Assembly: GCA_964453265.1 (NCBI GenBank)
Contig: CAYVNU010000002.1
Span: forward strand, 40,619-104,618
Length of the DNA: 64,000 bases
Direction: 5' to 3'
From: an uncultured Candidatus Saccharibacteria bacterium
Lineage (GTDB): Bacteria; Patescibacteriota; Doudnabacteria; UBA920
The position numbers were made by a program, and so were the translations under genes. Below are positions 940 through 62,036 of the stretch, piece after piece (within the stretch, counting starts at the first letter, position 1; each line of letters starts with the position of its first letter). The notes beneath the pieces were generated by a model, which had not been told where the DNA came from, ran no database searches, and saw nothing but the letters and a program-made list of their open reading frames with translations.

Positions 940-986
940 CCCCTCCTTCGCTAAAGCTTCGGCGGGCAAAGCAAGGCTTCGGCGGA
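940..986. repeat. Dispersed GC-rich repeat, copy R1 (cctccttcgctaaagcttcggcgg...)
   Basis: Shares cctccttcg(c/t)taaagcttcggcgg with copy R4, and gcttcggcgg (reverse-complemented) with copy R5. Confidence 0.45.
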
Positions 987-6692: not shown

Positions 6693-6732
6693 TCTCCTCC
6701 GTCATTGCGAGTATAGCCAAAACAATCTATAT
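6693..6732. repeat. Dispersed GC-rich repeat, copy R2 (ctcctccgtcattgcgag...caatctatat)
   Basis: Shares cgtcattgcgag and caatctatat with R5, and ctcctcc(g/t)tc with R4. Confidence 0.45.
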
Positions 6733-17280: not shown

Positions 17281-17339
17281 TTTTTCATTAACCAATTTCG
17301 TGTATGAAATCAGTATGTAAATATTGAAATAAGAACCAT

Positions 17340-17692
17340 CCAGATCCGCCAAAGTCCCGACTGGTCGGGACGACGGTGGAAGAGTCGCTGGCGCTCTGAG
17401 TGGCTAAACTGATTAATTACCAACCTAAAAGGTTACCAGTCGCAAACTTTTTTACCAATATACTCTAATAACCTCCTCCCCGGGTTCCGATAACTCCACC
17501 CGGGGTTTCCAACACGGCGCCCGCGATGATTATCAATCGCTAAGAGCTTACCTGCTGGCGGGCGTAACTTGCTTTCCAAAACGGGGATGGTTTTGGAAAG
17601 AACAGAGCCGTTCATCCCCGGACGGCGGTGAAGATCTGTTTTAAGCTTATGGCTTCAATGCTGGCCGCCTGTCCGGGGTTTTCTGGCAGACT
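17340..17692 (+). ncRNA. GC-rich structured region and candidate ncRNA; class unresolved (tmRNA, SRP RNA and 6S-like RNA not excluded)
   Basis: A roughly 350-nt island of about 50% GC sits in an AT-rich genome. It contains nested hairpins: gtcccgac/gtcgggac, ccccgggt/acccgggg, ctttccaaaac/gttttggaaag and cggggatg/catccccg. A strong terminator hairpin follows. The only ORF in the region is a spurious antisense one. Confidence 0.3.
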
Positions 17693-17728
17693 AAAAAGAG
17701 CCTGTAATTACAGGCTCTTTTGTATTTT
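17693..17728. terminator. Bidirectional terminator hairpin
   Basis: aaaaa-gagcctgtaattacaggctc-ttttgtatttt. Confidence 0.55.
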
Positions 17729-30730: not shown

Positions 30731-33490
30731 TTATGATTTTTTATGATACGGCGCGTTTACCATTCCGCACTTTTTATACTTATACACTTTGCCGGTTTCG
30801 GGGTTAATTGCTCCGCAAGGGCAAGGGTCGTTGCGGCCTACATTTTCTGTTTTTACGCCTTCGGATGAATTATAATTTGAAGATAATAAGGGACTTTCAG
30901 TTTTATTGGTAACTAAATTGCTCGGAACAGAAGTTTGCTGATTTGCTGATAAATTGGGCTGAACATTAATATGAAAAATGGTATAAACCATTTGCTTGTT
31001 CATTTCTTTTATTAAGTTTTGAAACATAATAAAACCCTCTTTTTTGTACTCAACCAACGGGTCTCTTTGACCATAGCCTCTTAAGCGCACAGAGTCCCTT
31101 AAATGATCCATGGTATCTAAATGCTCCATCCATAAAGTATCCATAGCCTGCAAAGCTACAAAACGCATGGCTCCGTCAAACACTTCCTCTCCCATTTCTT
31201 TTTCTTTTTCCTCAAAAAGTTTTACCGCTTTTTGGCTCAGCGCGTCAACAACGGCAAATTCTTTATTTGCAGCGTTTTGAGCTGCGGTTTTTATTTCATT
31301 TGCCAAAGCTGTGTCAACAGGAATAATTGCGCCAATTGTTTTAATTAAGCTATCCCAATCTTCTTTAGTATTACCGTTTTCATCGAGAGTGTTTAAATTT
31401 TGAGTTGCTAGTTCCGAAAATTCATTCTTTATTAACTCCAAAAACTCTTCTTTCAATGTTTTACTATCTTCCAGTTTTTCCTTTGGATAGCCGGGCAAAA
31501 AACGCCTGCGGATTTTGTAAATTATATTGCGCTGATGGTTTAATACGTCATCAAATTCCAAAACGTGCTTGCGAGTGTCAAAGTTAAGGCCTTCAATTTT
31601 CTTTTGCGCAGATTCAATCGAGCGAGAGACCATTTTGGCCTCTATTGGCTGCTCGTCGGGAAGACCCAAAGAAGTCATAAGACTTTTCATCCGCTCACCA
31701 CCAAAAAGACGCATAAGGTCATCTTCCATGGAAACAAAGAACTGCGAAGAACCCGGGTCGCCTTGGCGTCCGGATCTACCTCTTAATTGATTGTCAATTC
31801 TGCGAGATTCATGGCGCTCCGTGCCTAAAATATGCAACCCACCGGCCTTTTTGACCGCTTCTGCCTCTTCAGGGTTAACCGGATTACCACCAAGCAAAAT
31901 GTCCACACCACGGCCGGCAATATTTGTAGCTAAAGTTACTGAACCAAAACGCCCGGCCTGAGAAATAATATGCGCTTCACGTTCATGATTTTTGGCATTT
32001 AAAATTTCAAATTGCACACCTTCCTTTTTTAAAACTTCCGCCAACATTTCATTTTTCGCAATACTAACAGTACCGATTAACACCGGTTGGCCTTTTTTAT
32101 TTCTCTCTTTAACTTCTTGAGCAATGGACTTAAATTTTGCTTCTTCAGTTTTATAAACTACATCGGGCAAATCTTGCCTAACCATAGTTCTGTTAGTCGG
32201 AATCTGTTCAATAGTCAGCCTATAAATTTTAAAGAATTCCTCTTCTTCAGTTTTCGCCGTGCCGGTCATGCCGGATAAAAACCAATACAGTCTAAACAAA
32301 TTCTGAAAAGTAATAGTGGCTAAGGTTTTACTTTCTTGTTGAATTTTTACATTTTCTTTCGCCTCAATTGCCTGATGAAGTCCTTCGCTATATCTACGGC
32401 CAAACATAAGCCTGCCAGTAAATTCGTCGACAATAATAATTTCTCCTTCACGGACAACATAATCACGGTCAACTTTAAACAAAGTTCTTGCTCTTAAAGC
32501 CTGCTCAATATGATGAATGGTAGTTACGCCTTTACTGGTGTCGTAAATATTCGGAACTTTTAAAATGCCTTCTATTTTATTTATACCCGCATCGGTTAAA
32601 CTGGCGGCTTTATGTTTTTCGTCTACTGTGTAGTCTAGTTTTTCATCTAAACGGTCGATAATTTTAGCGTATTCATAATATTTACTGGTCGGCTCAGTGT
32701 CGGGCGTACTAATAATTAAAGGCGTCCTGGCTTCATCTATTAAAATTGAGTCAACTTCGTCGACAATTGCAAAAAATAAATCACGCTGAGTCATTTGGCT
32801 AAAATGCTGAACCATGTTGTCGCGCAAATAATCAAAACCAAATTCATTGTTAGTTCCGTAAGTTATATCGGCCGCGTAAGCTTCTTTTCTGGTAATAGGT
32901 CTCATGTGCTTAACGTCTAAAACAAGTCCTTGAGTTTCGCCTTCCAACTTTTTTACTTCTTCGTCTTCCGGCTTATATTCCGGGTCATACAAAAAACTCG
33001 CTTCATGCTGAATGGAGGCAACGCTTAAGCCTAAAAATTTAAACAAAGGACCAATTAAAGAAGCTTGCCAGCGGGCTAAATAATCGTTAACGGTAACTAA
33101 ATGTGCGCCCTTGCCTGCAAGTGCATATAAAACCAAAGGCAAAGTAGCGGTTAAAGTCTTGCCTTCACCGGTTTTCATTTCTGAAATTTTGTTGTCTGAA
33201 AGCGCGAGTCCGCCGACAATTTGCACGTCGTAATGAGTTTGCCCCAAAGTTCTTTTACTAGCTTCTCTTACCAATGCAAAAACTCTGGTTCTTACTTCCA
33301 GAATTTTTTCTTTTATTTCTTCTTTGGTCTGCAGCTTAGAAAATTCCTGCTTAAAATTTGCTATTTCAGCCTGGATTTGTTCTTGAGTTAAACCCGCGAT
33401 TTCTTCTTTAAAACTATTAACTTCTAAAAGTTCGGTTTTATAGCTATCCAATGCGCTTTTTTCACCGAATAATTTGTTTAAAAATGACAT
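30731..33490 (-). CDS. secA: Preprotein translocase ATPase SecA
   Basis: 919 aa with DEAD motor motifs (MKTGEGKT, DEVDSILIDEARTPLIIS) and a C-terminal Cys-rich tail (CPCG...C). Confidence 0.95.
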   Translation of the reverse strand: MSFLNKLFGEKSALDSYKTELLEVNSFKEEIAGLTQEQIQAEIANFKQEFSKLQTKEEIKEKILEVRTRVFALVREASKRTLGQTHYDVQIVGGLALSDNKISEMKTGEGKTLTATLPLVLYALAGKGAHLVTVNDYLARWQASLIGPLFKFLGLSVASIQHEASFLYDPEYKPEDEEVKKLEGETQGLVLDVKHMRPITRKEAYAADITYGTNNEFGFDYLRDNMVQHFSQMTQRDLFFAIVDEVDSILIDEARTPLIISTPDTEPTSKYYEYAKIIDRLDEKLDYTVDEKHKAASLTDAGINKIEGILKVPNIYDTSKGVTTIHHIEQALRARTLFKVDRDYVVREGEIIIVDEFTGRLMFGRRYSEGLHQAIEAKENVKIQQESKTLATITFQNLFRLYWFLSGMTGTAKTEEEEFFKIYRLTIEQIPTNRTMVRQDLPDVVYKTEEAKFKSIAQEVKERNKKGQPVLIGTVSIAKNEMLAEVLKKEGVQFEILNAKNHEREAHIISQAGRFGSVTLATNIAGRGVDILLGGNPVNPEEAEAVKKAGGLHILGTERHESRRIDNQLRGRSGRQGDPGSSQFFVSMEDDLMRLFGGERMKSLMTSLGLPDEQPIEAKMVSRSIESAQKKIEGLNFDTRKHVLEFDDVLNHQRNIIYKIRRRFLPGYPKEKLEDSKTLKEEFLELIKNEFSELATQNLNTLDENGNTKEDWDSLIKTIGAIIPVDTALANEIKTAAQNAANKEFAVVDALSQKAVKLFEEKEKEMGEEVFDGAMRFVALQAMDTLWMEHLDTMDHLRDSVRLRGYGQRDPLVEYKKEGFIMFQNLIKEMNKQMVYTIFHINVQPNLSANQQTSVPSNLVTNKTESPLLSSNYNSSEGVKTENVGRNDPCPCGAINPETGKVYKYKKCGMVNAPYHKKS

Positions 33491-33580
33491 AAATATAGCT
33501 GTTTATTACCTAAAGAGTATATCATTATTACCGGCATTTGAAAACCCTTAAATTTAAGCTTGTTACTAATAATACTACAA

Positions 33581-33619
33581 GGCCGGCCATCATGATTTTG
33601 ATGGCCGGCTGGGTTTTTT
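33581..33619 (+). terminator. Strong terminator-like hairpin
   Basis: ggccggccatca-tgattt-tgatggccggc followed by tgggtttttt. Confidence 0.5.
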
Positions 33620-34079
33620 CCCGAAAAGTTTTTCAAACTTTTCGGGGCTCATCTCCTCAACCTTTCTGCCGGACATCCCGGCAAAAAATGAAGAGATTTC
33701 ATAGCACACCCTCAAGGTGTGCTCGGAGCTCCACTCAAACGAGTGGAGCTGATATGTTTTTCCCATACCGCCTCCTCGCAGGCAAGCCCAGCGCGCTTGT
33801 AATTCCCGCTATGTGATTTTGCGCTGGCGATTAGTTACAAAAATAACCAATCGCCAATTCAAATTTAGAGTCCTTTTGCACTAGCGTACTAGCCTGCCCG
33901 CCGACTCGTCCGACAAAGTCCGCCTCAGGCGGACGAAGTTGGAAGCTTTAGTGAAGGAGGGTACGGTGATACACGGAAATATTTAAGGGAAACCTCTTCT
34001 TAATCAACTATTTAAATAACTAACTAAGAAAGGGTGGCAGGTTTTTTAGGCCTGCCAAAATTGTTGATTTCAAAACTCA
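33620..34079. other. GC-rich hairpin-dense non-coding block
   Basis: Six or more perfect or near-perfect hairpins, for example cccgaaaagt/acttttcggg, agcacacc/ggtgtgct, gctccactc/gagtggagc, gtccgcc/ggcggac and ggcagg/cctgcc. The only ORF (33538..33816 +) looks spurious. Confidence 0.3.
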
Positions 34080-34526
34080 CTACTTCTCAAAAATTTTTTT
34101 CTGCAGGGAATTTATTAGACAAAAACGACTCTTTTGATTCTTGGACGTAATGATTTCCCCTTTACGCTCAGCCTTATAGAAGGCCTTTAAAACACCCAGT
34201 AGTTGTTTTGTCCAAAGCATTTTTTTGTACCCCTGAACTACAAAGGCTTCTAATTCCCTAGAGTATCTATTTTGAGAGGCAATTTCTGCCAGTAAATCTT
34301 CTTGAGTAATTTTTGCCATCAACAGCTCTCTAGCCTCTCGTTTTCGATCATTGGTTTCTATGACAACATATGTTTTCCCAGTCAAACTGCTCAGAGTTTT
34401 GAGCAATACAGCAATCTTTTGTTCCCGACGAGTAACAACTGAGTTATGGACAACTCCTTTTTGTTGAAAAACCATTGAACCCTCTTTCCTTGCAAGCGAG
34501 TACCCTAGCGCTCTTACCGCCTGCAT
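34080..34526 (-). CDS. Hypothetical protein (148 aa), an orphan ORF embedded in the GC-rich block
   Basis: ORF only. No recognisable motif. Flanked by the ttttgcgctgg direct repeats. Confidence 0.4.
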   Translation of the reverse strand: MQAVRALGYSLARKEGSMVFQQKGVVHNSVVTRREQKIAVLLKTLSSLTGKTYVVIETNDRKREARELLMAKITQEDLLAEIASQNRYSRELEAFVVQGYKKMLWTKQLLGVLKAFYKAERKGEIITSKNQKSRFCLINSLQKKIFEK

Positions 34527-34617
34527 TGTAGTTTTGCGCTGGTGACCAGGCTGTCATTCCAAACGTGGTGAGAAATCCCTTATAATTTAACGTTCGATCA
34601 TTGTTAGATAATCAAAA

Positions 34618-34682
34618 GTTAAGGGATCCCTCCGCTCCTCGCCAATTTTATTTCATTAAAATTGGCTCGTCGGTCGGGATGA
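34618..34682. repeat. Dispersed GC-rich repeat, copy R3 (gttaagggatccctccgctcctcgcc...cgggatg)
   Basis: Shares the 15-mer ttaagggatccctcc and the terminal cgggatg with R4. Confidence 0.45.
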
Positions 34683-34859
34683 CAAAACTCATCAAAACAA
34701 AACCACCTTCCGCAAAGAAAGGTGGTTAGGAAAGTTTTGTAACAATGCTAAACCCCAGACTTTGCGAAAGAAGGCAAAGTCCACCAAGCTGATACTGTAT
34801 ATTTTATAACTGCTTTACTCATAAAAATATGATAAACCATCGACTGGCCTATGTCAATA

Positions 34860-34873
34860 GCGTACTAGTACGC
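34860..34873. promoter_or_regulatory. Perfect 14-bp palindrome gcgtactagtacgc, a TrpR-family operator-like CTAG site upstream of yerC
   Basis: Perfect palindrome located 105 bp upstream of the TrpR-like gene. A related CTAG-n4-CTAG site (ctagcgtactag) lies at 33881-33892. Confidence 0.4.
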
Positions 34874-34977
34874 TGAAACACATAAATAATTAAGTTTATT
34901 TGAATTATCCACATCTTTATTTACAAAATCTTTTACTAATGTTACCGTACAAGTAACTCTACTAATAACAAATATTT

Positions 34978-35268
34978 ATGAAATACAAGCATGAGTACGG
35001 TGTAGAATTAGAAAAGTTAATAGAAAAAATAGGTCAAACCAAAGACAATAAACTAATGCGTGAGTTTTTGTTTGATTTACTCTCCCCTGCTGAGTACCGA
35101 GAAGTGGCTGTTAGATGGCAAATTGTCAAAATGCTTAACAAAAACATTCCACACCGGGAAATATCTAAAACACTAAAAGTTGGTTTAGCTACAATAAACC
35201 GAGGCGCGAGAGAATTGGTCAATAAAAAAGGCGGCTTTAAAACTGTATTAAATAAATTTTTTAAATAA
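34978..35268 (+). CDS. yerC: TrpR-like DNA-binding protein (YerC/YecD family)
   Basis: 96 aa. The stretch REVAVRWQIVKML...ISKTLKVGLATINRGAREL matches the TrpR/YerC helix-turn-helix. Confidence 0.75.
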   Translation: MKYKHEYGVELEKLIEKIGQTKDNKLMREFLFDLLSPAEYREVAVRWQIVKMLNKNIPHREISKTLKVGLATINRGARELVNKKGGFKTVLNKFFK

Positions 35269-35742: not shown

Positions 35743-36957
35743 TCACACTAATTCTTTTAAATCAGAGTCAGAAAAACCTATTAATTCCGGCTCAATGTGG
35801 ATATTTATCCCGAGCTTTTCTAGGGCGGTTTTTTTAACTTGCTTAGCCAGATTTAAGACATCGCTTGCGGTAGCTTTGCCGGTTTGGTTAATTATAACCA
35901 AAGGTTGATTTTTATTAATAGCCGCCCCACCGAAAGCAAAATCTTTCAATCCGCAAATATCAAGCAAAAATGCAGTTGGTACTTTTACGCTATTGGCGTC
36001 AGTAAATTTTTTCTGTTCAAGTTTTTCAGCAGTTTCTTGGCCAAATTCTTTTTGCAACCTATTTTTTAAAATTAAAAATTCTTCTTGATTTAAAATTAAA
36101 TTTTTAAAAAATGAGCCGGCGTTACCTTTTTTAGCTTCTGTGGGAAACGGAAATTTTTTATTTCTTATTTCTATAATTGCCTGACGAATTTCTAACAGGC
36201 TTGGCTTTATATTGGCAAATTTTTGAGCTAAATCTCGGTAATTTAAAATCGGCAGAGGGTTTTTTGAAAGTTTAAAGACAATTTCAAAAATAATATACCT
36301 GCCTTTTTCAGTGCTATTAAATATGCTCTTTCGATACGAAAATCCGCAATCTGTTTTATTTAGACTTAATATTTGATGGGTTTGTTTGTCAAAAACCGTT
36401 ACAGATTCTATGAGATTTTTAGCTTCCTGTCCGTAAGCCCCGACATTTTGCACGGCAATAGCACCTGTGCTCCCGGGAATATGCGATAAATTTTCCATTC
36501 CCCACCAATTATTTTTTACCGCAAAATCAACCACACTGTCCCAATTTTCACCTGAAGCCACTTTAAGAAAAATAAAATTTTTATCCGATCCGAGTCCGCC
36601 AATTGGCGGAGAGGAATCGATTTTTTGTACATGCTGATTTATATTAAGGGATCCCTCCTCCTTCGTTAAAGCTTCGGCGGACAAGTCGGCCGCACTCGGG
36701 ATGGTTAAAACATGAAAACTTTCGATTACTTCAATCCCCTTATTTACAACCCTAATAACCAACCCGCTAAATCCACTGTCAGCTATTAATAAATTACTAC
36801 CCCCGCCCAAAATAAACACGGGTAAGTTTTTTGCTTGAGCAAATTCAAAAGCCGTTAAAGCATCAAACTGGTCTTTAACCTCGCAAAAATATTTGGCCGG
36901 CCCGCCTATTTTAAAAGTGGTGTAAGGTGCTAATTGTATATTTTCTAAAACTTTCAT
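35743..36957 (-). CDS. murB: UDP-N-acetylenolpyruvoylglucosamine reductase MurB, carrying an in-frame repeat-derived insertion
   Basis: N-terminal FAD-binding motifs (YTTFKIGGPAKYF, ILGGGSNLL). The 404-aa length exceeds typical MurB, and the dispersed GC-rich repeat at 36645-36705 lies in-frame inside it. Confidence 0.85.
   Translation of the reverse strand: MKVLENIQLAPYTTFKIGGPAKYFCEVKDQFDALTAFEFAQAKNLPVFILGGGSNLLIADSGFSGLVIRVVNKGIEVIESFHVLTIPSAADLSAEALTKEEGSLNINQHVQKIDSSPPIGGLGSDKNFIFLKVASGENWDSVVDFAVKNNWWGMENLSHIPGSTGAIAVQNVGAYGQEAKNLIESVTVFDKQTHQILSLNKTDCGFSYRKSIFNSTEKGRYIIFEIVFKLSKNPLPILNYRDLAQKFANIKPSLLEIRQAIIEIRNKKFPFPTEAKKGNAGSFFKNLILNQEEFLILKNRLQKEFGQETAEKLEQKKFTDANSVKVPTAFLLDICGLKDFAFGGAAINKNQPLVIINQTGKATASDVLNLAKQVKKTALEKLGINIHIEPELIGFSDSDLKELV
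36645..36705. repeat. Dispersed GC-rich repeat, copy R4, in-frame inside murB
   Basis: ttaagggatccctcctccttcgttaaagcttcggcggacaagtcggccgcactcgggatgg. In the murB frame it encodes TIPSAADLSAEALTKEEGSLN. Confidence 0.5.
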
Positions 36958-37390: not shown

Positions 37391-37409
37391 ATTACTCAAC
37401 TTCCATCAA

Positions 37410-37520
37410 TTCATAAGACAAACGATTAAAATCCCCCACTGCCATAACGACTACCACGTCCCCTTCCTTGGTTTTTTTAAAATATCCAAGGATTCTTTTT
37501 TATTGCCAACAAGATGCATA
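37410..37520 (-). pseudogene. Remnant copy of the murC 3' end (last ~40 codons plus stop), roughly 85% identical to 38876-38983
   Basis: The minus-strand translation is LVGNKKESLDILKKTKEGDVVVVMAVGDFNRLSYELMEVE*. The murC C-terminus is ...LVHNKQEALDILKKEAKEGDVVVVMAVGDFNRLSYELNENL*. The copy is not in frame with the upstream ORF. Confidence 0.6.
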
Positions 37521-37536: not shown

Positions 37537-37980
37537 TTATGCTGGGAAGTTTATAAAAATTACTTTAGGCCTTATCCCTAAAACCCTAGCTATCATTAAA
37601 CGTGTATTTCCAGCTACTTTGTGATACCTTCCATTCATCTTAAAAATAATTGGGGCTGCCATGGGAACTCCTTTCTTCATATCAGCCAATTTATTCTCCC
37701 AGCTTCTCTTATTCAACGCAGCAATTTCTTCAAGCTTTTCAACTTCACCCTCTGAAAGATCTTGGAAAGAATCTGTATTTTCTAGGACAGACCATATTTC
37801 ATCCGATAAAGTTTCGAGCTGCGCATTGTCAAACTGATTTTTAAAGGCCCACATTATTTGCTTGTATAATTCTTTATCACCTCGTGAAAACTCTTTAGCT
37901 GTACGATCAATTTCACCAAACTCATATTCTAGATTTGGCTTCTCCCATTGTTCGGGCTTTTGTTTTTCAAATTCTCTCAT
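37537..37980 (-). CDS. Hypothetical protein with a C-terminal ParB/Srx-like motif
   Basis: 147 aa. The C-terminal RYHKVAGNTRLMIARVLGIRPKVIFI resembles the ParB N-terminal domain pattern (Y.iiaGerRlrAa..lG...pviv). This is a weak call. Confidence 0.45.
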   Translation of the reverse strand: MREFEKQKPEQWEKPNLEYEFGEIDRTAKEFSRGDKELYKQIMWAFKNQFDNAQLETLSDEIWSVLENTDSFQDLSEGEVEKLEEIAALNKRSWENKLADMKKGVPMAAPIIFKMNGRYHKVAGNTRLMIARVLGIRPKVIFINFPA

Positions 37981-38856: not shown

Positions 38857-40347
38857 TTATAAATTTTCGTTTAGTTCATAACTTAGTCTGTTAAAGTCCC
38901 CCACTGCCATAACAACCACCACATCCCCTTCCTTGGCTTCTTTTTTTAAAATATCCAAGGCTTCTTGTTTGTTATGAACAAGTCGAACTTGATTTTTGTT
39001 ACTTGATTCTTGTTTCTTAATTTCTTTAATTACATCGGAAGAAGATATAGTGGCTTCTGATATTTTCTCGCGCGCGGGATAGATTTCGGAAATTAAAATT
39101 TCATCGGCAGCATCAAAAGCTTTAACTAAGTCAGGCAAAGTGGCTTTTGTCCGACTAAATGTATGCGGCTCAAAAACGGCCCACAACTTAGGTGTTAGGT
39201 TAGAGCTGTTAGGTTTTAGATTAGAAAAATACTTAAGACGAGCTGCTTCTAGTGTTTCGCGCACAGCGGTTGGGTGGTGAGCGTAATCGTCTATAATAGT
39301 CACGCCATTTTTTACACCCACAACTTCAAAGCGCCTCTTAAGGCCGGTAAAACTAATTAAGTCCAATAAAAACTGCTGCGGCTGAAAACCCAGTGCTCTG
39401 AGTGTAGCCACAGAAGCCAAAACATTGTAAACATTCAATTTTCCGGGCAGCTGGATTTTATACTCTTCAGTTTGACCAAGCAGCTGAGCGTTTAAATTTT
39501 TTGAAAATTTATTTATTACTTCAAAGTTTGTATATTGCCCGTATTGAATATTTTCAACTTTAAAATCAGCGTTATTATCTACTCCAAAACTTACTGAGGA
39601 CAGATTAGATTCGTGAACCAATCTAACTAAATTAGAATTATCCGCGTTGTAAACAATCAATCCATCTTCAGGCATTGCCGCAATTAACTGTCTAAATTCA
39701 TCTTCAAGCTCCTCTAAACTAGAAAAAATATCCGGGTGGTCGTATTCCAAGTTTGTTAGAACCAAAATGTCGGGTTTATAAAAATGAAATTTCGGGGTCG
39801 GATCGTCAAACTGTTCTTTGTATTCATCGCCCTCAAAAACAAAATAATTACCGTCGCCGGAATAAAAGTTTAAATTATAATTTTTTAAAACACCACCGGC
39901 CATAAAAGAACTATTATCCAAATTCTTCAGCAAATGACCAAGTAATGCTGTTGTTGTGGATTTCCCGTGAGTACCGGCAACAACAATTCTCAATTTGTCT
40001 TTACTTAAAAAATACAAATATTCAGCCAGGCCACAGCGAGTCAAATTGTTTTTTAAAATATAATCAACTTCCGGGTTTGTAAAACTTTCACCAGCAGATA
40101 TAACATACAAATCCGCGTGAGAGTTTTTAACCTGCTCTGAATCATAACCAACAAAATATTTTATTTGGTTTTTATCTAAAACATCTTTTGCCGGAGAATA
40201 AACACTTTTACTGTCGCTACCTAAAACTTCAAAACCCGCTTCTGAGGCTAAGTTAGCCGCTGCAGACATAGCAATACCGCCTATGCCCACAAAATATATT
40301 TTGGCGCCGGGAACAAGAATATTTTCTAAATCTAAGTTTGTATCCAT
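38857..40347 (-). CDS. murC: UDP-N-acetylmuramate--L-alanine ligase MurC (an Mpl-type ligase is not excluded)
   Basis: FVGIGGIAMS N-terminus, the P-loop VAGTHGKSTTT, and NLEYDHPDIF. Confidence 0.85.
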   Translation of the reverse strand: MDTNLDLENILVPGAKIYFVGIGGIAMSAAANLASEAGFEVLGSDSKSVYSPAKDVLDKNQIKYFVGYDSEQVKNSHADLYVISAGESFTNPEVDYILKNNLTRCGLAEYLYFLSKDKLRIVVAGTHGKSTTTALLGHLLKNLDNSSFMAGGVLKNYNLNFYSGDGNYFVFEGDEYKEQFDDPTPKFHFYKPDILVLTNLEYDHPDIFSSLEELEDEFRQLIAAMPEDGLIVYNADNSNLVRLVHESNLSSVSFGVDNNADFKVENIQYGQYTNFEVINKFSKNLNAQLLGQTEEYKIQLPGKLNVYNVLASVATLRALGFQPQQFLLDLISFTGLKRRFEVVGVKNGVTIIDDYAHHPTAVRETLEAARLKYFSNLKPNSSNLTPKLWAVFEPHTFSRTKATLPDLVKAFDAADEILISEIYPAREKISEATISSSDVIKEIKKQESSNKNQVRLVHNKQEALDILKKEAKEGDVVVVMAVGDFNRLSYELNENL

Positions 40348-47375: not shown

Positions 47376-47768
47376 GTTCTTAACAAACCGAATAATCGCT
47401 TTCCCGATTCATATCGGGAGGGAGGAAAGTCCGAACACTTATTTGATAGCCTCTTAAGAGTTATCAAAATTGGTAACGGGTAACGCCCGTATGGAGCAAC
47501 CCGCCGTCGCGTAAAGCTATGGCGAGCCAAGCCACGAGATGCGAACAGAAACGATTAAATCCGAAAGGGTTTAATATCCCCAAAGGGTAACCTTGGGATG
47601 TTCCGGTAGTAACACCGGAGTGAAACGGCTAAATTCTTACCTGAGTGCAAGGCCAAATTTGGTAGGCTGCTTGATCCCGGCAGTAATGTCTGGGGCAGAT
47701 AGATGATTATTTTTTCCGCCGTAAGGCGGGATGTTAAACAGAATTCGGCTTATGAGTTTGTTAAGAGC
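47376..47768 (+). ncRNA. rnpB: RNase P RNA, bacterial type A
   Basis: Contains the conserved blocks GGGAGGGAGGAAAGTCCGAACAC, GGGTAACGCCCGT...CAACCCGCCG, ACAGAAACG, GGAGTGAAACGG and GAGTGCAAGGCCAAATTTGGTAGGCTGCTTGATCCCGG...ACAGAATTCGGCTTATGAG. P1 pairs cttaacaaac with gtttgttaag. A TTGACA -35 hexamer lies at 47341. Confidence 0.85.
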
Positions 47769-61997: not shown

Positions 61998-62036
61998 CGT
62001 CATTGCGAGAAGTGCATCCGCCGAAGCAATCTATAT
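61998..62036. repeat. Dispersed GC-rich repeat, copy R5 (cgtcattgcgagaagtgcatccgccgaagcaatctatat)
   Basis: Shares both end motifs with R2 and contains ccgccgaagc, the reverse complement of the R1/R4 core. Confidence 0.45.

What the first reader, a model, noticed from the sequence alone, without database searches (positions are those of the whole stretch)
36645..36705. A dispersed-repeat copy inserted in-frame into murB, adding about 20 aa to an essential enzyme
Copy R4 of the repeat lies inside the MurB coding sequence and is read through in frame as TIPSAADLSAEALTKEEGSLN. MurB here is 404 aa against about 300-340 aa typically. Tolerated in-frame insertion of a repeat into an essential peptidoglycan enzyme is unusual. 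It could mark a surface loop, and it is evidence that the repeat family has been mobile.
Basis: seen in the sequence. Interest (0 to 1): 0.5.

Follow-up and report, generated by a model that had tools for sequence, protein, structure and literature searches.

The report
Hairpin repeats read through inside MurB
An essential cell-wall enzyme (MurB) of a small uncultured CPR bacterium carries about 45 extra amino acids that are translated copies of two selfish-looking DNA hairpin repeats, one nested in the other; this kind of event was previously known mainly from Rickettsia.

Summary
murB (35743-36957, minus strand, 404 aa) reads through a GC-rich block whose core also occurs at 940-971 and 33941-33961, where chance predicts no such matches.

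The insert is larger than the finding says. About 132-135 nt (36586-36720, residues 80-124) are absent from 92 of 119 close MurB homologues. The nearest homologue (93% identical, same gene order) lacks 120 nt of it.

The block has four parts:
- a 16-nt left flank;
- hairpin H1 (CCATCCCGAG..GAGGGATCCC);
- an AT-rich spacer;
- an inverted, decayed hairpin H2.

This is a head-to-head dimer of a REP-like repeat of the CGTC/NTS type. A separate 30-nt hairpin repeat (36658-36687) sits in the H1 loop. A more distant relative has the same dimer at the same site without that 30-nt piece.

The insert lies between two beta-strands. AlphaFold2 gives it low confidence, consistent with a disordered loop.

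Related dimers occupy the same loop in at least five scattered MurB lineages, in two reading frames. The 30-nt repeat is read in frame in ATP synthase, aminoacyl-tRNA synthetases, PGK and MurC-like genes in other metagenomes.

Closest precedents are the Rickettsia palindromic elements and intragenic REP dimers. How the repeats move remains an inference.

The parts
35743..36957 (-). murB coding sequence, 404 aa, intact
   Evidence: ORF list. Pfam MurB_C and FAD_binding_4. PDB hits to MurB. Gene order TPR-murB-hpf-trpR matches L001.
36586..36720 (-). Whole extra block (residues 80-124) relative to the canonical 12-residue loop. 120 nt of it are absent from the nearest homologue, L001.
   Evidence: Protein alignments A1 and A3. 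DNA alignment A2. Coordinates.
36705..36720 (-). 16-nt left flank of the insert (sense strand AGTTTTCATGTTTTAA, peptide SFHVL). It is shared with L003 at 12 of 16 positions and absent from empty sites.
36648..36704 (-). Hairpin H1: CCATCCCGAG-loop-GAGGGATCCC (sense strand), including the nested repeat
   Evidence: Apart from the nested 30 nt, it is identical over 33 nt (codons 84-90 and 101-104) to H1 in the murB of L003. The same 27-nt hairpin occurs in other CPR genomes.
36658..36687 (-). Nested 30-nt hairpin repeat (sense strand GACTTGTCCGCCGAAGCTTTAACGAAGGAG, peptide DLSAEALTKE). This is the 'dispersed repeat' of the finding.
   Evidence: Exactly these 30 nt are missing from L003. Similar copies lie at 940-971 and 33941-33961. 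The family has at least 120 metagenome loci.
36619..36647 (-). AT-rich spacer between the two hairpins
   Evidence: Spacer length is typical of the family, with a mode of 26-28 nt.
36585..36618 (-). Hairpin H2, an inverted and decayed copy (GATTCCTC-loop-CTCGGATCGG). Its loop holds the perfect 16-nt palindrome TCCGCCAATTGGCGGA (36595-36610).
   Evidence: Compared with H2 of L003, GGGATTCCTCGCAAAGCCTCGGAATGG. Palindrome.
940..971 (+). Intergenic copy of the 30-nt repeat, in the opposite orientation to the murB copy
33941..33961 (+). Partial intergenic copy of the 30-nt repeat core
34553..34683 (+). Intergenic copy with the same layout as the murB dimer: GTCATTCC..GAAATCCC, an AT-rich spacer, then TTAAGGGATCCCTCC..TCGGGATGAC
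   Evidence: Fold z-score -1.9.

Best explanation
The flagged segment is part of a translated fossil of mobile hairpin DNA.

Proposed history:
1. A head-to-head dimer of a REP-like hairpin repeat landed in the hairpin loop between two beta-strands of MurB's FAD-binding module. The dimer consists of H1, a spacer of about 29 nt and an inverted H2, and it is of the CGTC/NTS type. The event happened in an ancestor shared with the P0005 lineage.
2. In the window's lineage, a second, unrelated 30-nt hairpin repeat (consensus TTGCCCGCCGAAGCTTTAGCGAAGGAGGG) later inserted into the apical loop of H1.
3. The loop of H2 grew by 9 nt.

Every step added a multiple of three bases without a stop codon. MurB is therefore translated straight through and carries a surface loop of about 45 residues, probably disordered, with no required role in catalysis.

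The copy in the window has lost the ability to fold as one long hairpin, so it is probably no longer mobile.

Shown: the presence/absence pattern, the nesting, family membership at the DNA level, the loop position and the intact enzyme.

Inferred: that the peptide is functionless, and how the repeats move. Movement is most likely through single-stranded hairpin intermediates, as for REPINs with RAYT transposases, or in association with a small GIY-YIG (Ssn-like) nuclease.
For: Presence and absence:
- The syntenic nearest homologue L001 (93% aa identity) lacks 120 nt.
- 92 of 119 homologues have the 12-residue loop.

Nesting:
- L003 (three independent assemblies, L003-L005, plus MAG contig L017) has H1, spacer and H2 at the same site, minus exactly 30 nt in H1 and 9 nt in H2.
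- A parallel case exists in truB: L101 has a 30-nt nested piece in the same H1 loop and the orthologous L069 does not.

Repeated colonisation of this loop:
- Related dimers occupy it in L006, L008 and L009. There the left arm is read as CCA-TCC-CGA, whereas the window reads ACC-ATC-CCG.
- Carriers are scattered on the MurB tree, each with sisters that lack the insert.

Family evidence:
- CCATCCCGAG-N(7-37)-GAGGGATCCC has at least 119 loci in reference genomes.
- 44 of 120 matches have an inverted H2 downstream, against 2 in the upstream control.
- The L003 and L009 elements fold as single long hairpins, with z-scores of -4.96 and -3.1.

The 30-nt repeat:
- It has at least 120 metagenome loci.
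- 27 of 132 hits lie deep inside ORFs of at least 200 aa. These include ATP synthase alpha/beta, two class I aaRS, PGK, a Mur ligase, an M50 peptidase and PGM/PMM.

Structure and enzyme:
- pLDDT is 30-55 across residues about 79-127, between confident strands.
- The catalytic-site motif is conserved and substitutions are biased to third codon positions.
Against: - The window's own copy folds no better than shuffled sequence (z=+0.21). Its hairpin nature is argued by homology to better-preserved copies, not shown directly.
- It lacks the CGTC tag, and the published SRM search pattern does not match any copy tested.
- No transposase, RAYT or GIY-YIG gene lies in the 64-kb window, so nothing here shows mobility in this genome.
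- Gain and loss cannot be separated within the window/P0005 clade. A single ancestral insertion needs several later deletions, one of them restoring the canonical loop exactly (L010).
- H1 is 100% identical over 33 nt between window and L003, while third codon positions of murB are only 55% identical. Neutral decay of a dead fossil does not predict this. It points to DNA-level constraint, gene conversion or more recent acquisition.
- Translation of the insert is inferred from frame and selection, not observed.
Confidence: 0.82

Rival explanations
1. Exapted loop. The repeat-derived peptide or its DNA/RNA hairpin has acquired a function, for example a protein contact, regulation of murB mRNA or a nuclease recognition site, and is kept by selection rather than merely tolerated.
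For: The dimer is retained in two lineages whose MurB proteins are only about 71% identical. H1 is perfectly conserved over 33 nt, including 11 third codon positions, where about 55% identity is expected. In other CPR genomes the same H1 sits immediately upstream of gene starts.
Against: - The closest relatives of both carriers do without it (L001, L010).
- The spacer and H2 have diverged freely.
- The window copy has lost its fold.
- The peptide is predicted to be disordered.
- Unrelated repeat-derived peptides occupy the same loop in other homologues.
Confidence: 0.12
2. Independent recent insertions. The window and P0005 lineages each acquired the dimer separately at the same site, through target specificity for this sequence, rather than inheriting it.
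For: - H1 and its TTAA flanks are identical in the two lineages.
- L010, sister of L003, has an apparently untouched canonical loop.
- L006, L008 and L009 show the loop can be hit repeatedly.
- CPR copies are usually preceded by TTA or TTAA.
Against: - The 16-nt left flank and the spacer, which differ among other copies of the family, are similar in window and L003.
- The L001 loop DNA resembles the spacer end plus the left arm of H2. This suggests an imprecise deletion of an inherited element, but the match is weak.
Confidence: 0.3
3. Chance similarity or lineage-specific loop growth. The extra residues arose by ordinary indels and only resemble the repeat.
For: The loop varies in length in many homologues (11-60 residues).
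Against: - No shuffle reached the observed matches, and blastn-short gives E=6.9e-6.
- The same 27-nt hairpin and the same 30-nt unit are found in unrelated genomic contexts and other genes.
- The 30-nt indel against L003 has exact boundaries.
Confidence: 0.02
4. Assembly artefact or pseudogene. The block is a chimeric join, or this murB is a dead copy.
For: Only one assembly of this exact sequence was available. Repeats are a common cause of misassembly.
Against: - The block is in frame and free of stop codons.
- The flanking coding sequence is collinear with the orthologues.
- The related dimer recurs in four independent assemblies.
- Substitutions follow the pattern of purifying selection.
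- Gene order is conserved.
Confidence: 0.03

Closest known systems
Rickettsia palindromic elements (RPE; Ogata et al. 2000 Science, 2002 Genome Res, as summarised in PMC10969869 and PMC3733652)
   Same: Both are short palindromic repeats inserted in frame into unrelated housekeeping genes and read through as extra peptides compatible with the protein fold. Both occur in a small-genome, host-dependent lineage. truB is a target in both (PMC3733652).
   Different: The host phylum is different (CPR/Patescibacteria, Doudnabacteria-like). The units are shorter, about 27-nt hairpins in a dimer of about 90 nt plus a 30-nt repeat, against about 100-150 bp for RPE-1. Here one repeat is nested inside another. 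No sequence comparison with RPE consensus sequences was possible.
Intragenic CGTC-tagged REP dimers (Di Nocera et al. 2013, PMC3733652)
   Same: Hairpins whose stems begin with A-T pairs and end in a short tail, arranged as head-to-head dimers with 20-100 nt spacers. Intragenic dimers encode 20-30 aa, and no dedicated transposase is known. Many high-GC copies found here carry the CGTC or TGTC tag.
   Different: The murB copy itself has no CGTC/TGTC/CCTC tag (its ends read AACC and ATCC). Its stem contains a conserved GAG/GAG purine mismatch block. That survey did not report CPR among the host phyla and does not mention murB (0 text matches).
NTS/SRM hairpin repeats associated with Ssn GIY-YIG single-strand nucleases (Chenal et al. 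2025, PMC11893778)
   Same: The layout is (C)GTCAT-stem-loop-stem-ATC. In two CPR genomes a 96-aa single-domain GIY-YIG gene is flanked by these hairpins, as in NTS-ssnA-NTS.
   Different: The published SRM search pattern fails on our hairpins, which have GAG where NTS has GCG. Membership of the GIY-YIG protein in cd10448 was not testable. No such gene lies in the window. That paper's text has no match to 'intragenic' or 'within genes'.
REPINs mobilised by RAYT transposases (Bertels and Rainey 2011, PMC3116915)
   Same: Two inverted REPs with a spacer fold into one long hairpin and act as the replicating unit. The L003 and L009 elements fold this way.
   Different: REPINs carry GTAG tags, are essentially extragenic and have a RAYT gene nearby. 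None of these was seen here.

Membership tests
MurB (UDP-N-acetylenolpyruvoylglucosamine reductase) | FAD_binding_4 plus MurB_C domains and the MurB fold | tested here: met
   Pfam hits. E. coli MurB at E=1.7e-45. Foldseek top 18 hits are all MurB, with target-normalised TM-score 0.76-0.87.
MurB (UDP-N-acetylenolpyruvoylglucosamine reductase) | Active-site serine (E. coli Ser229) and its surrounding motif conserved | tested here: met
   Query GNAGSFFKN aligns to E. coli GNAGSFFKN and to the S229A mutant 1uxy, GNAGAFFKN. S282 is invariant in 119 homologues.
In-frame palindromic insertions of the RPE type | Repeat present in a gene but absent from close orthologues, in frame and without stop codons | tested here: met
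In-frame palindromic insertions of the RPE type | Same repeat family also found in other genes and in intergenic DNA | tested here: met
   Intergenic copies in the window. Copies in truB, a TP_methylase gene and a Wzy_C gene. Copies of the 30-nt repeat in ATP synthase, aaRS, PGK, Mur ligase, M50 peptidase and PGM/PMM genes.
In-frame palindromic insertions of the RPE type | Insertion lies in a surface loop compatible with the fold | tested here: inconclusive
   Low-confidence segment between two confident strands, and a loop of very variable length in homologues.
In-frame palindromic insertions of the RPE type | Sequence homology to a named RPE family | not testable with these tools
   No RPE consensus sequences were available.
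CGTC-tagged REP (Di Nocera 2013) | Terminal CGTC (or TGTC/CCTC) tag outside the stem | tested here: not met
   The murB copy has TTAACC|AT.. on one side and ..AT|CGGAT on the other. The tag is present in the window copies at 6700 and 61998 (CGTCATTGCGAG) and in many high-GC copies.
CGTC-tagged REP (Di Nocera 2013) | Stem of 8-9 bp starting with complementary A-T pairs, plus a short 3' tail | tested here: met
   ATCCCGAG...CGAGGGAT followed by CCC. The stem includes a GAG/GAG mismatch block.
CGTC-tagged REP (Di Nocera 2013) | Head-to-head dimers with 20-100 nt spacers | tested here: met
   The spacer in murB is 29 nt. 44 of 120 family hits have an inverted partner downstream, against 2 upstream.
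CGTC-tagged REP (Di Nocera 2013) | Loop of 4-5 nt | tested here: not met
   The H1 loop is 6-7 nt in CPR copies (TGCATC or TGCGGCC) and 37 nt in the window because of the nested repeat.
SRM/NTS repeats of Ssn nucleases (Chenal 2025) | Match to the published SRM search pattern | tested here: not met
   The pattern finds the NTS control but none of H1, H2, the Acidobacteria-type copy or the window copies.
SRM/NTS repeats of Ssn nucleases (Chenal 2025) | Single-domain GIY-YIG gene flanked by the repeat on both sides | tested here: inconclusive
   Seen in L082 and L121, which is 2 of 17 low-GC loci. None lies in the window. Membership of the protein in cd10448 was not testable. The nearest solved structures are UPF0213 proteins, at weak scores.
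REPIN/RAYT | GTAG tag and an associated RAYT (Y1 transposase) gene | tested here: not met
   No GTAG tag was seen. Pfam scans of nine candidate window ORFs found no Y1 transposase. Only 64 kb was examined.
REPIN/RAYT | Dimer folds into one long hairpin | tested here: inconclusive
   Met for L003 (z=-4.96) and L009 (z=-3.1), but not for the window copy (z=+0.21).

The most novel reading that the evidence does not exclude
CPR/Patescibacteria may have a Rickettsia-like, genome-wide regime in which at least two families of hairpin repeats routinely colonise essential genes in frame.

One of them is a 30-nt unit that keeps the reading frame by its length and is stop-free in four of six frames. It preferentially lands in the single-stranded loops of other hairpin repeats.

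The dimer family belongs with the CGTC/NTS repeats, which include RPE-4 and RPE-6. Small Ssn-like GIY-YIG nucleases flanked by these hairpins could then be the long-missing mobilising or maintaining enzyme. That would also account for the perfect conservation of H1 inside murB.
Probability: 0.3. Interest if true: 0.65.

Novelty: new member of a known kind. Interest (0 to 1): 0.47.

Why it matters
- It shows that repeat colonisation of essential coding sequence, best known from Rickettsia, also operates in the Candidate Phyla Radiation. This can explain some of the odd insertions that make CPR proteins longer than their homologues.
- It identifies a loop of MurB that tolerates insertions.
- It provides natural matched pairs for studying how hairpin repeats move and how proteins absorb them: empty site, dimer, and dimer plus nested repeat.
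- For annotation and phylogenomics, these inserts are non-homologous columns and should be masked.
- The GIY-YIG association, if confirmed, would bear on the open question of what mobilises CGTC-type REPs.

Tried and rejected
- **Whole 56-nt segment as a repeat:** it is unique in the window. Only sub-modules repeat.
- **Rfam:** no family matches the element in the window (gathering thresholds, region 33450-35000, which includes the intergenic dimer copy) or in six loci carrying it.
- **Literature search by sequence strings:** only unrelated primer hits.
- **Searches for CPR plus intragenic or REP repeats:** nothing relevant in the held library.
- **Published SRM pattern:** no match to our hairpins.
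- **GIY-YIG or transposase in the window:** a motif scan, tblastn and Pfam on nine candidate ORFs found none.
- **NCBIfam on the GIY-YIG protein:** no family.
- **Supplementary data of the Ssn paper, to get the SsnA sequence:** not held.
- **H1 as an independently mobile unit with a TTAA duplication:** rejected for murB, because H1 plus TTAA is 31 nt and would shift the frame.
- **The 148-aa ORF at 34080-34526 or the 147-aa ORF at 37537-37980 as homologues of the 148-aa ORF upstream of murB in L003:** no similarity.
- **Intein or intron readings:** the block is too short and carries no such motifs. These were not pursued further.
Full report
**1. The observation**

The minus-strand ORF 35743..36957 encodes 404 aa, and residues 85-105 read TIPSAADLSAEALTKEEGSLN. 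The protein is MurB:
- Pfam MurB_C and FAD_binding_4, the latter split into two stretches;
- E. coli MurB at E=1.7e-45;
- an AlphaFold2 model (mean pLDDT 86) whose 18 best PDB matches are all MurB.

The flagged segment is a GC island, 0.55 GC against 0.35 for the window.

Its core of 28 nt matches 942-969 at 93%. No shuffle reproduced the two matches, and blastn-short gives E=6.9e-6. A weaker copy lies at 33942-33960 on the other strand. A 15-mer, TTAAGGGATCCCTCC, is shared with the intergenic site 34619-34633.

**2. The insertion is larger than flagged and is composite**

E. coli MurB aligns to query residues 6-78 and 129-394 and has 5 residues where the query has 50.

Among 119 close homologues, mostly labelled Doudnabacteria or Patescibacteria, 92 have a 12-residue loop between the invariant GIE and LKVASGE motifs. 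The query has 56 residues over the same span.

The nearest homologue, P0001, is 93% identical over aligned columns and sits in the same gene order (TPR gene, murB, hpf, trpR). It is 40 aa shorter.

Aligning the DNA gave the key result. L001 (P0001) lacks 120 nt. L003 (P0005, 71% identical) carries an element at the same place that lacks exactly 30 nt present in the window. That piece is GACTTGTCCGCCGAAGCTTTAACGAAGGAG, window 36658-36687. These 30 nt are the part that matches the dispersed copies.

Read in the murB sense, the block consists of:
- a 16-nt left flank (36705-36720);
- hairpin H1, CCATCCCGAG-loop-GAGGGATCCC (36648-36704), with the 30-nt repeat in its loop;
- an AT-rich spacer (36619-36647);
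- an inverted, decayed hairpin H2 (36585-36618), whose loop is the perfect palindrome TCCGCCAATTGGCGGA. This loop is 9 nt longer than in L003.

The additions of 30 and 9 nt give 13 codons. That is the length difference between the two inserts (44 against 31 aa).

**3. What the outer element is**

The hits fall in Acidobacteriota, Chthoniobacterales and other Verrucomicrobiota, Thermoanaerobaculia, and CPR groups (Doudnabacteria, Saccharibacteria, Uhrbacteria, Falkowbacteria, Berkelbacteria).

In 44 of 120 matches an inverted partner, GGGATYCCYC..CYCGGRATGR, follows, against 2 in an upstream control. The partner either abuts H1 or follows a spacer, most often of 26-28 nt. Loop-proximal bases are complementary in 24 of 120 matches, against about 2 expected.

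The L003 and L009 elements fold as one long hairpin, with z-scores of -4.96 and -3.1.

This layout matches two descriptions in the literature. One is the head-to-head REP dimer of Di Nocera et al. 2013 (PMC3733652), with these features:
- stems that start with A-T pairs;
- a short tail;
- tags facing outward;
- spacers of 20-100 nt;
- no dedicated transposase.

Those authors place Neisseria dRS3 and Rickettsia RPE-4 and RPE-6 in the same superfamily. The other is the NTS/SRM hairpin of Chenal et al. 2025 (PMC11893778), CGTCATTCCCGCGMAVGCGGGAATCYRG.

Many high-GC copies found here carry the CGTC or TGTC tag. So do two other hairpins in the window, CGTCATTGCGAG at 6700 and 61998.

The murB copy itself has no tag, and the published SRM pattern matches none of our copies. 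I therefore describe the element as a CGTC/NTS-like REP dimer rather than a member of either family. Rfam has no family for it.

**4. What the inner element is**

The flanks are unrelated, so the unit is about 30 nt: (C)TTGYCCGCCGAAGCTTTAGCGAAGGAGGR.

It can be drawn as the imperfect hairpin CCCGCC-GAA-GC-TTTA-GC-GAA-GGAGGG. Its predicted stability as single-stranded DNA is no better than that of shuffled sequence.

By inspection of the sequence, the unit is a multiple of three bases long and four of its six frames are open.

Of 132 hits, 27 lie deep inside ORFs of at least 200 aa. They are read mostly as PAEALAKEG or, on the other strand, PSFAKASAG. Pfam confirms the hosts: an ATP synthase alpha/beta subunit, two class I aminoacyl-tRNA synthetases, PGK, a Mur ligase, an M50 peptidase and a phosphoglucomutase-type enzyme.

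A second natural pair shows the same nesting. truB of L101 has a 30-nt relative of this unit in the same H1 loop, and the orthologous truB of L069 does not.

**5. Evidence for mobility, and its limits**

Dimers of this family occupy the same MurB loop in L006/P0036 (with P0051), L008/P0074 and L009/P0031. In those genes the left arm is read as CCA-TCC-CGA, whereas the window and L003 read ACC-ATC-CCG. There were therefore at least two separate events.

On a neighbour-joining tree the carriers are scattered, each next to sisters that lack the insert.

Other repeat-like peptides (LPPLTPPKIGGE and similar) occupy the same loop. Two further hotspots exist, after consensus positions 204 and 276-278.

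Other CPR genes carry H1-type hairpins in frame: truB, an RsmI-like methylase and a Wzy_C membrane protein.

Within the window/P0005 clade I cannot separate one old insertion followed by losses from repeated gains:
- The shared left flank and the similar spacers argue for common descent.
- The L001 loop DNA weakly resembles the spacer end plus the left arm of H2. Its peptide is KNDSP where the window has KIDSSP. This suggests an imprecise deletion.
- L010, the sister of L003, looks like an untouched canonical site.
- H1 is identical over 33 nt in window and L003, although murB third codon positions are only 55% identical. That conservation is unexplained.

**6. Consequence for the enzyme**

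The insert lies between strands 75-78 and 128-134 and has pLDDT 30-55. From my recollection of the E. coli structure papers, not tested here, the equivalent point is near the junction of domains 1 and 2.

The catalytic serine motif is intact. Identities to P0001 at codon positions 1, 2 and 3 are 0.95, 0.98 and 0.79, as expected for a gene under purifying selection.

The window copy has lost the long-hairpin fold (z=+0.21). I read it as a decayed, immobile, translated passenger.

**7. Mechanism of spread (inferred)**

No transposase or nuclease candidate lies in the window.

In two CPR genomes (L082, L121) a 96-aa single-domain GIY-YIG gene (Pfam PF01541) starts 2-6 nt after an H1. It is followed by another H1-spacer-H2 unit. 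This resembles the NTS-ssnA-NTS arrangement of the Ssn single-strand nucleases.

Upstream of a CobO-like gene, L082 has this gene between hairpins, whereas L093 has only a hairpin.

This is a lead, not a test. Two of 17 low-GC loci show it, and family membership of the protein could not be checked.

**8. Comparison and verdict**

The kind of event is known: Rickettsia palindromic elements, and intragenic REP dimers encoding 20-30 aa (PMC10969869, PMC3733652).

New here are the host lineage (CPR), the host gene (murB), the nesting of one repeat in another, and the breadth of in-frame spread of the 30-nt unit. I found no description of these in the searchable library, which does not cover all journals.

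I rate this a new member of a known kind, of moderate interest.

Noticed in passing
window 47380-47768 (+): A bacterial class A RNase P RNA scores 95.5 bits, just under Rfam's gathering score of 100, so the default scan missed it. It includes a GC-rich stretch at 47469-47544 that resembles the repeat style (CGCGTAAAGCTATGGCGAGCCAAG).
   Followed up: partly
window 17332-17702: A GC-rich non-coding block of about 370 nt lies between ORFs, with several hairpins and a terminator-like palindrome at 17694-17721. It has no credible Rfam match and no tRNA or tmRNA.
   Followed up: partly
window 33491-34079 and 34527-34977: Two long GC-rich non-coding regions flank a 148-aa ORF (34080-34526, no Pfam hit). 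Direct repeats of 38 nt at 33793-33830 and 34508-34545 (71% identical) bracket the ORF. No Rfam family matches.
   Followed up: partly
window 37401-37513 vs 38866-38982: A copy of about 113 nt of the 3' end of the Mur ligase gene (78-86% identical) lies 1.46 kb away. The two copies bracket two genes (a 147-aa ORF and a 275-aa ORF). L001 has no gene at the corresponding position, between its TPR gene and its Mur ligase gene, so this looks like a cassette insertion with a long duplication.
   Followed up: no
window 36648-36704 vs L003:829-861: Hairpin H1 and its TTAA flanks are 100% identical between two murB genes whose third codon positions are only 55% identical. Possible causes are constraint at the DNA level, gene conversion or recent acquisition. 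Unexplained.
   Followed up: partly
L082:2020-2450 and L121:1741-2180: A 96-aa single-domain GIY-YIG gene starts 2-6 nt after an H1 hairpin and is followed by an H1-spacer-H2 unit, like the NTS-ssnA-NTS arrangement of Ssn nucleases.
   Followed up: partly
L069 (truB ORF) and L051 (Wzy_C ORF): These proteins carry further in-frame inserts reading VIPASEPGS..LDSRFRGNDK and VIPVKTGIQ. These look like translations of NTS-type hairpins (by inspection of the peptides, not tested at the DNA level). If so, canonical NTS-like repeats are also read through in CPR genes.
   Followed up: no
L202:4061-4192 and L147:8738-8797: The 30-nt repeat forms tandem arrays with a 36-nt period inside an ORF, encoding ADLPAEALAKEG four times. 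The repeat can therefore also expand as a coding tandem repeat.
   Followed up: no
MurB homologues P0017, P0085, P0110, P0114, P0120 (after consensus position 204); P0055, P0077, P0086, P0094, P0118 (after 276-278): There are two more insertion hotspots in this MurB clade. The inserted peptides look like translated GC-rich repeats, for example TLSVPAKPAHFPQRGEN and SPHLPLGEGRGEG.
   Followed up: no
window 6700-6727 and 61998-62031: Two intergenic hairpins of a sister type carry a proper CGTC tag (CGTCATTGCGAG..CAATC). Both are preceded by a similar 20-nt AT-rich stretch (family D3 of the repeat scan).
   Followed up: no
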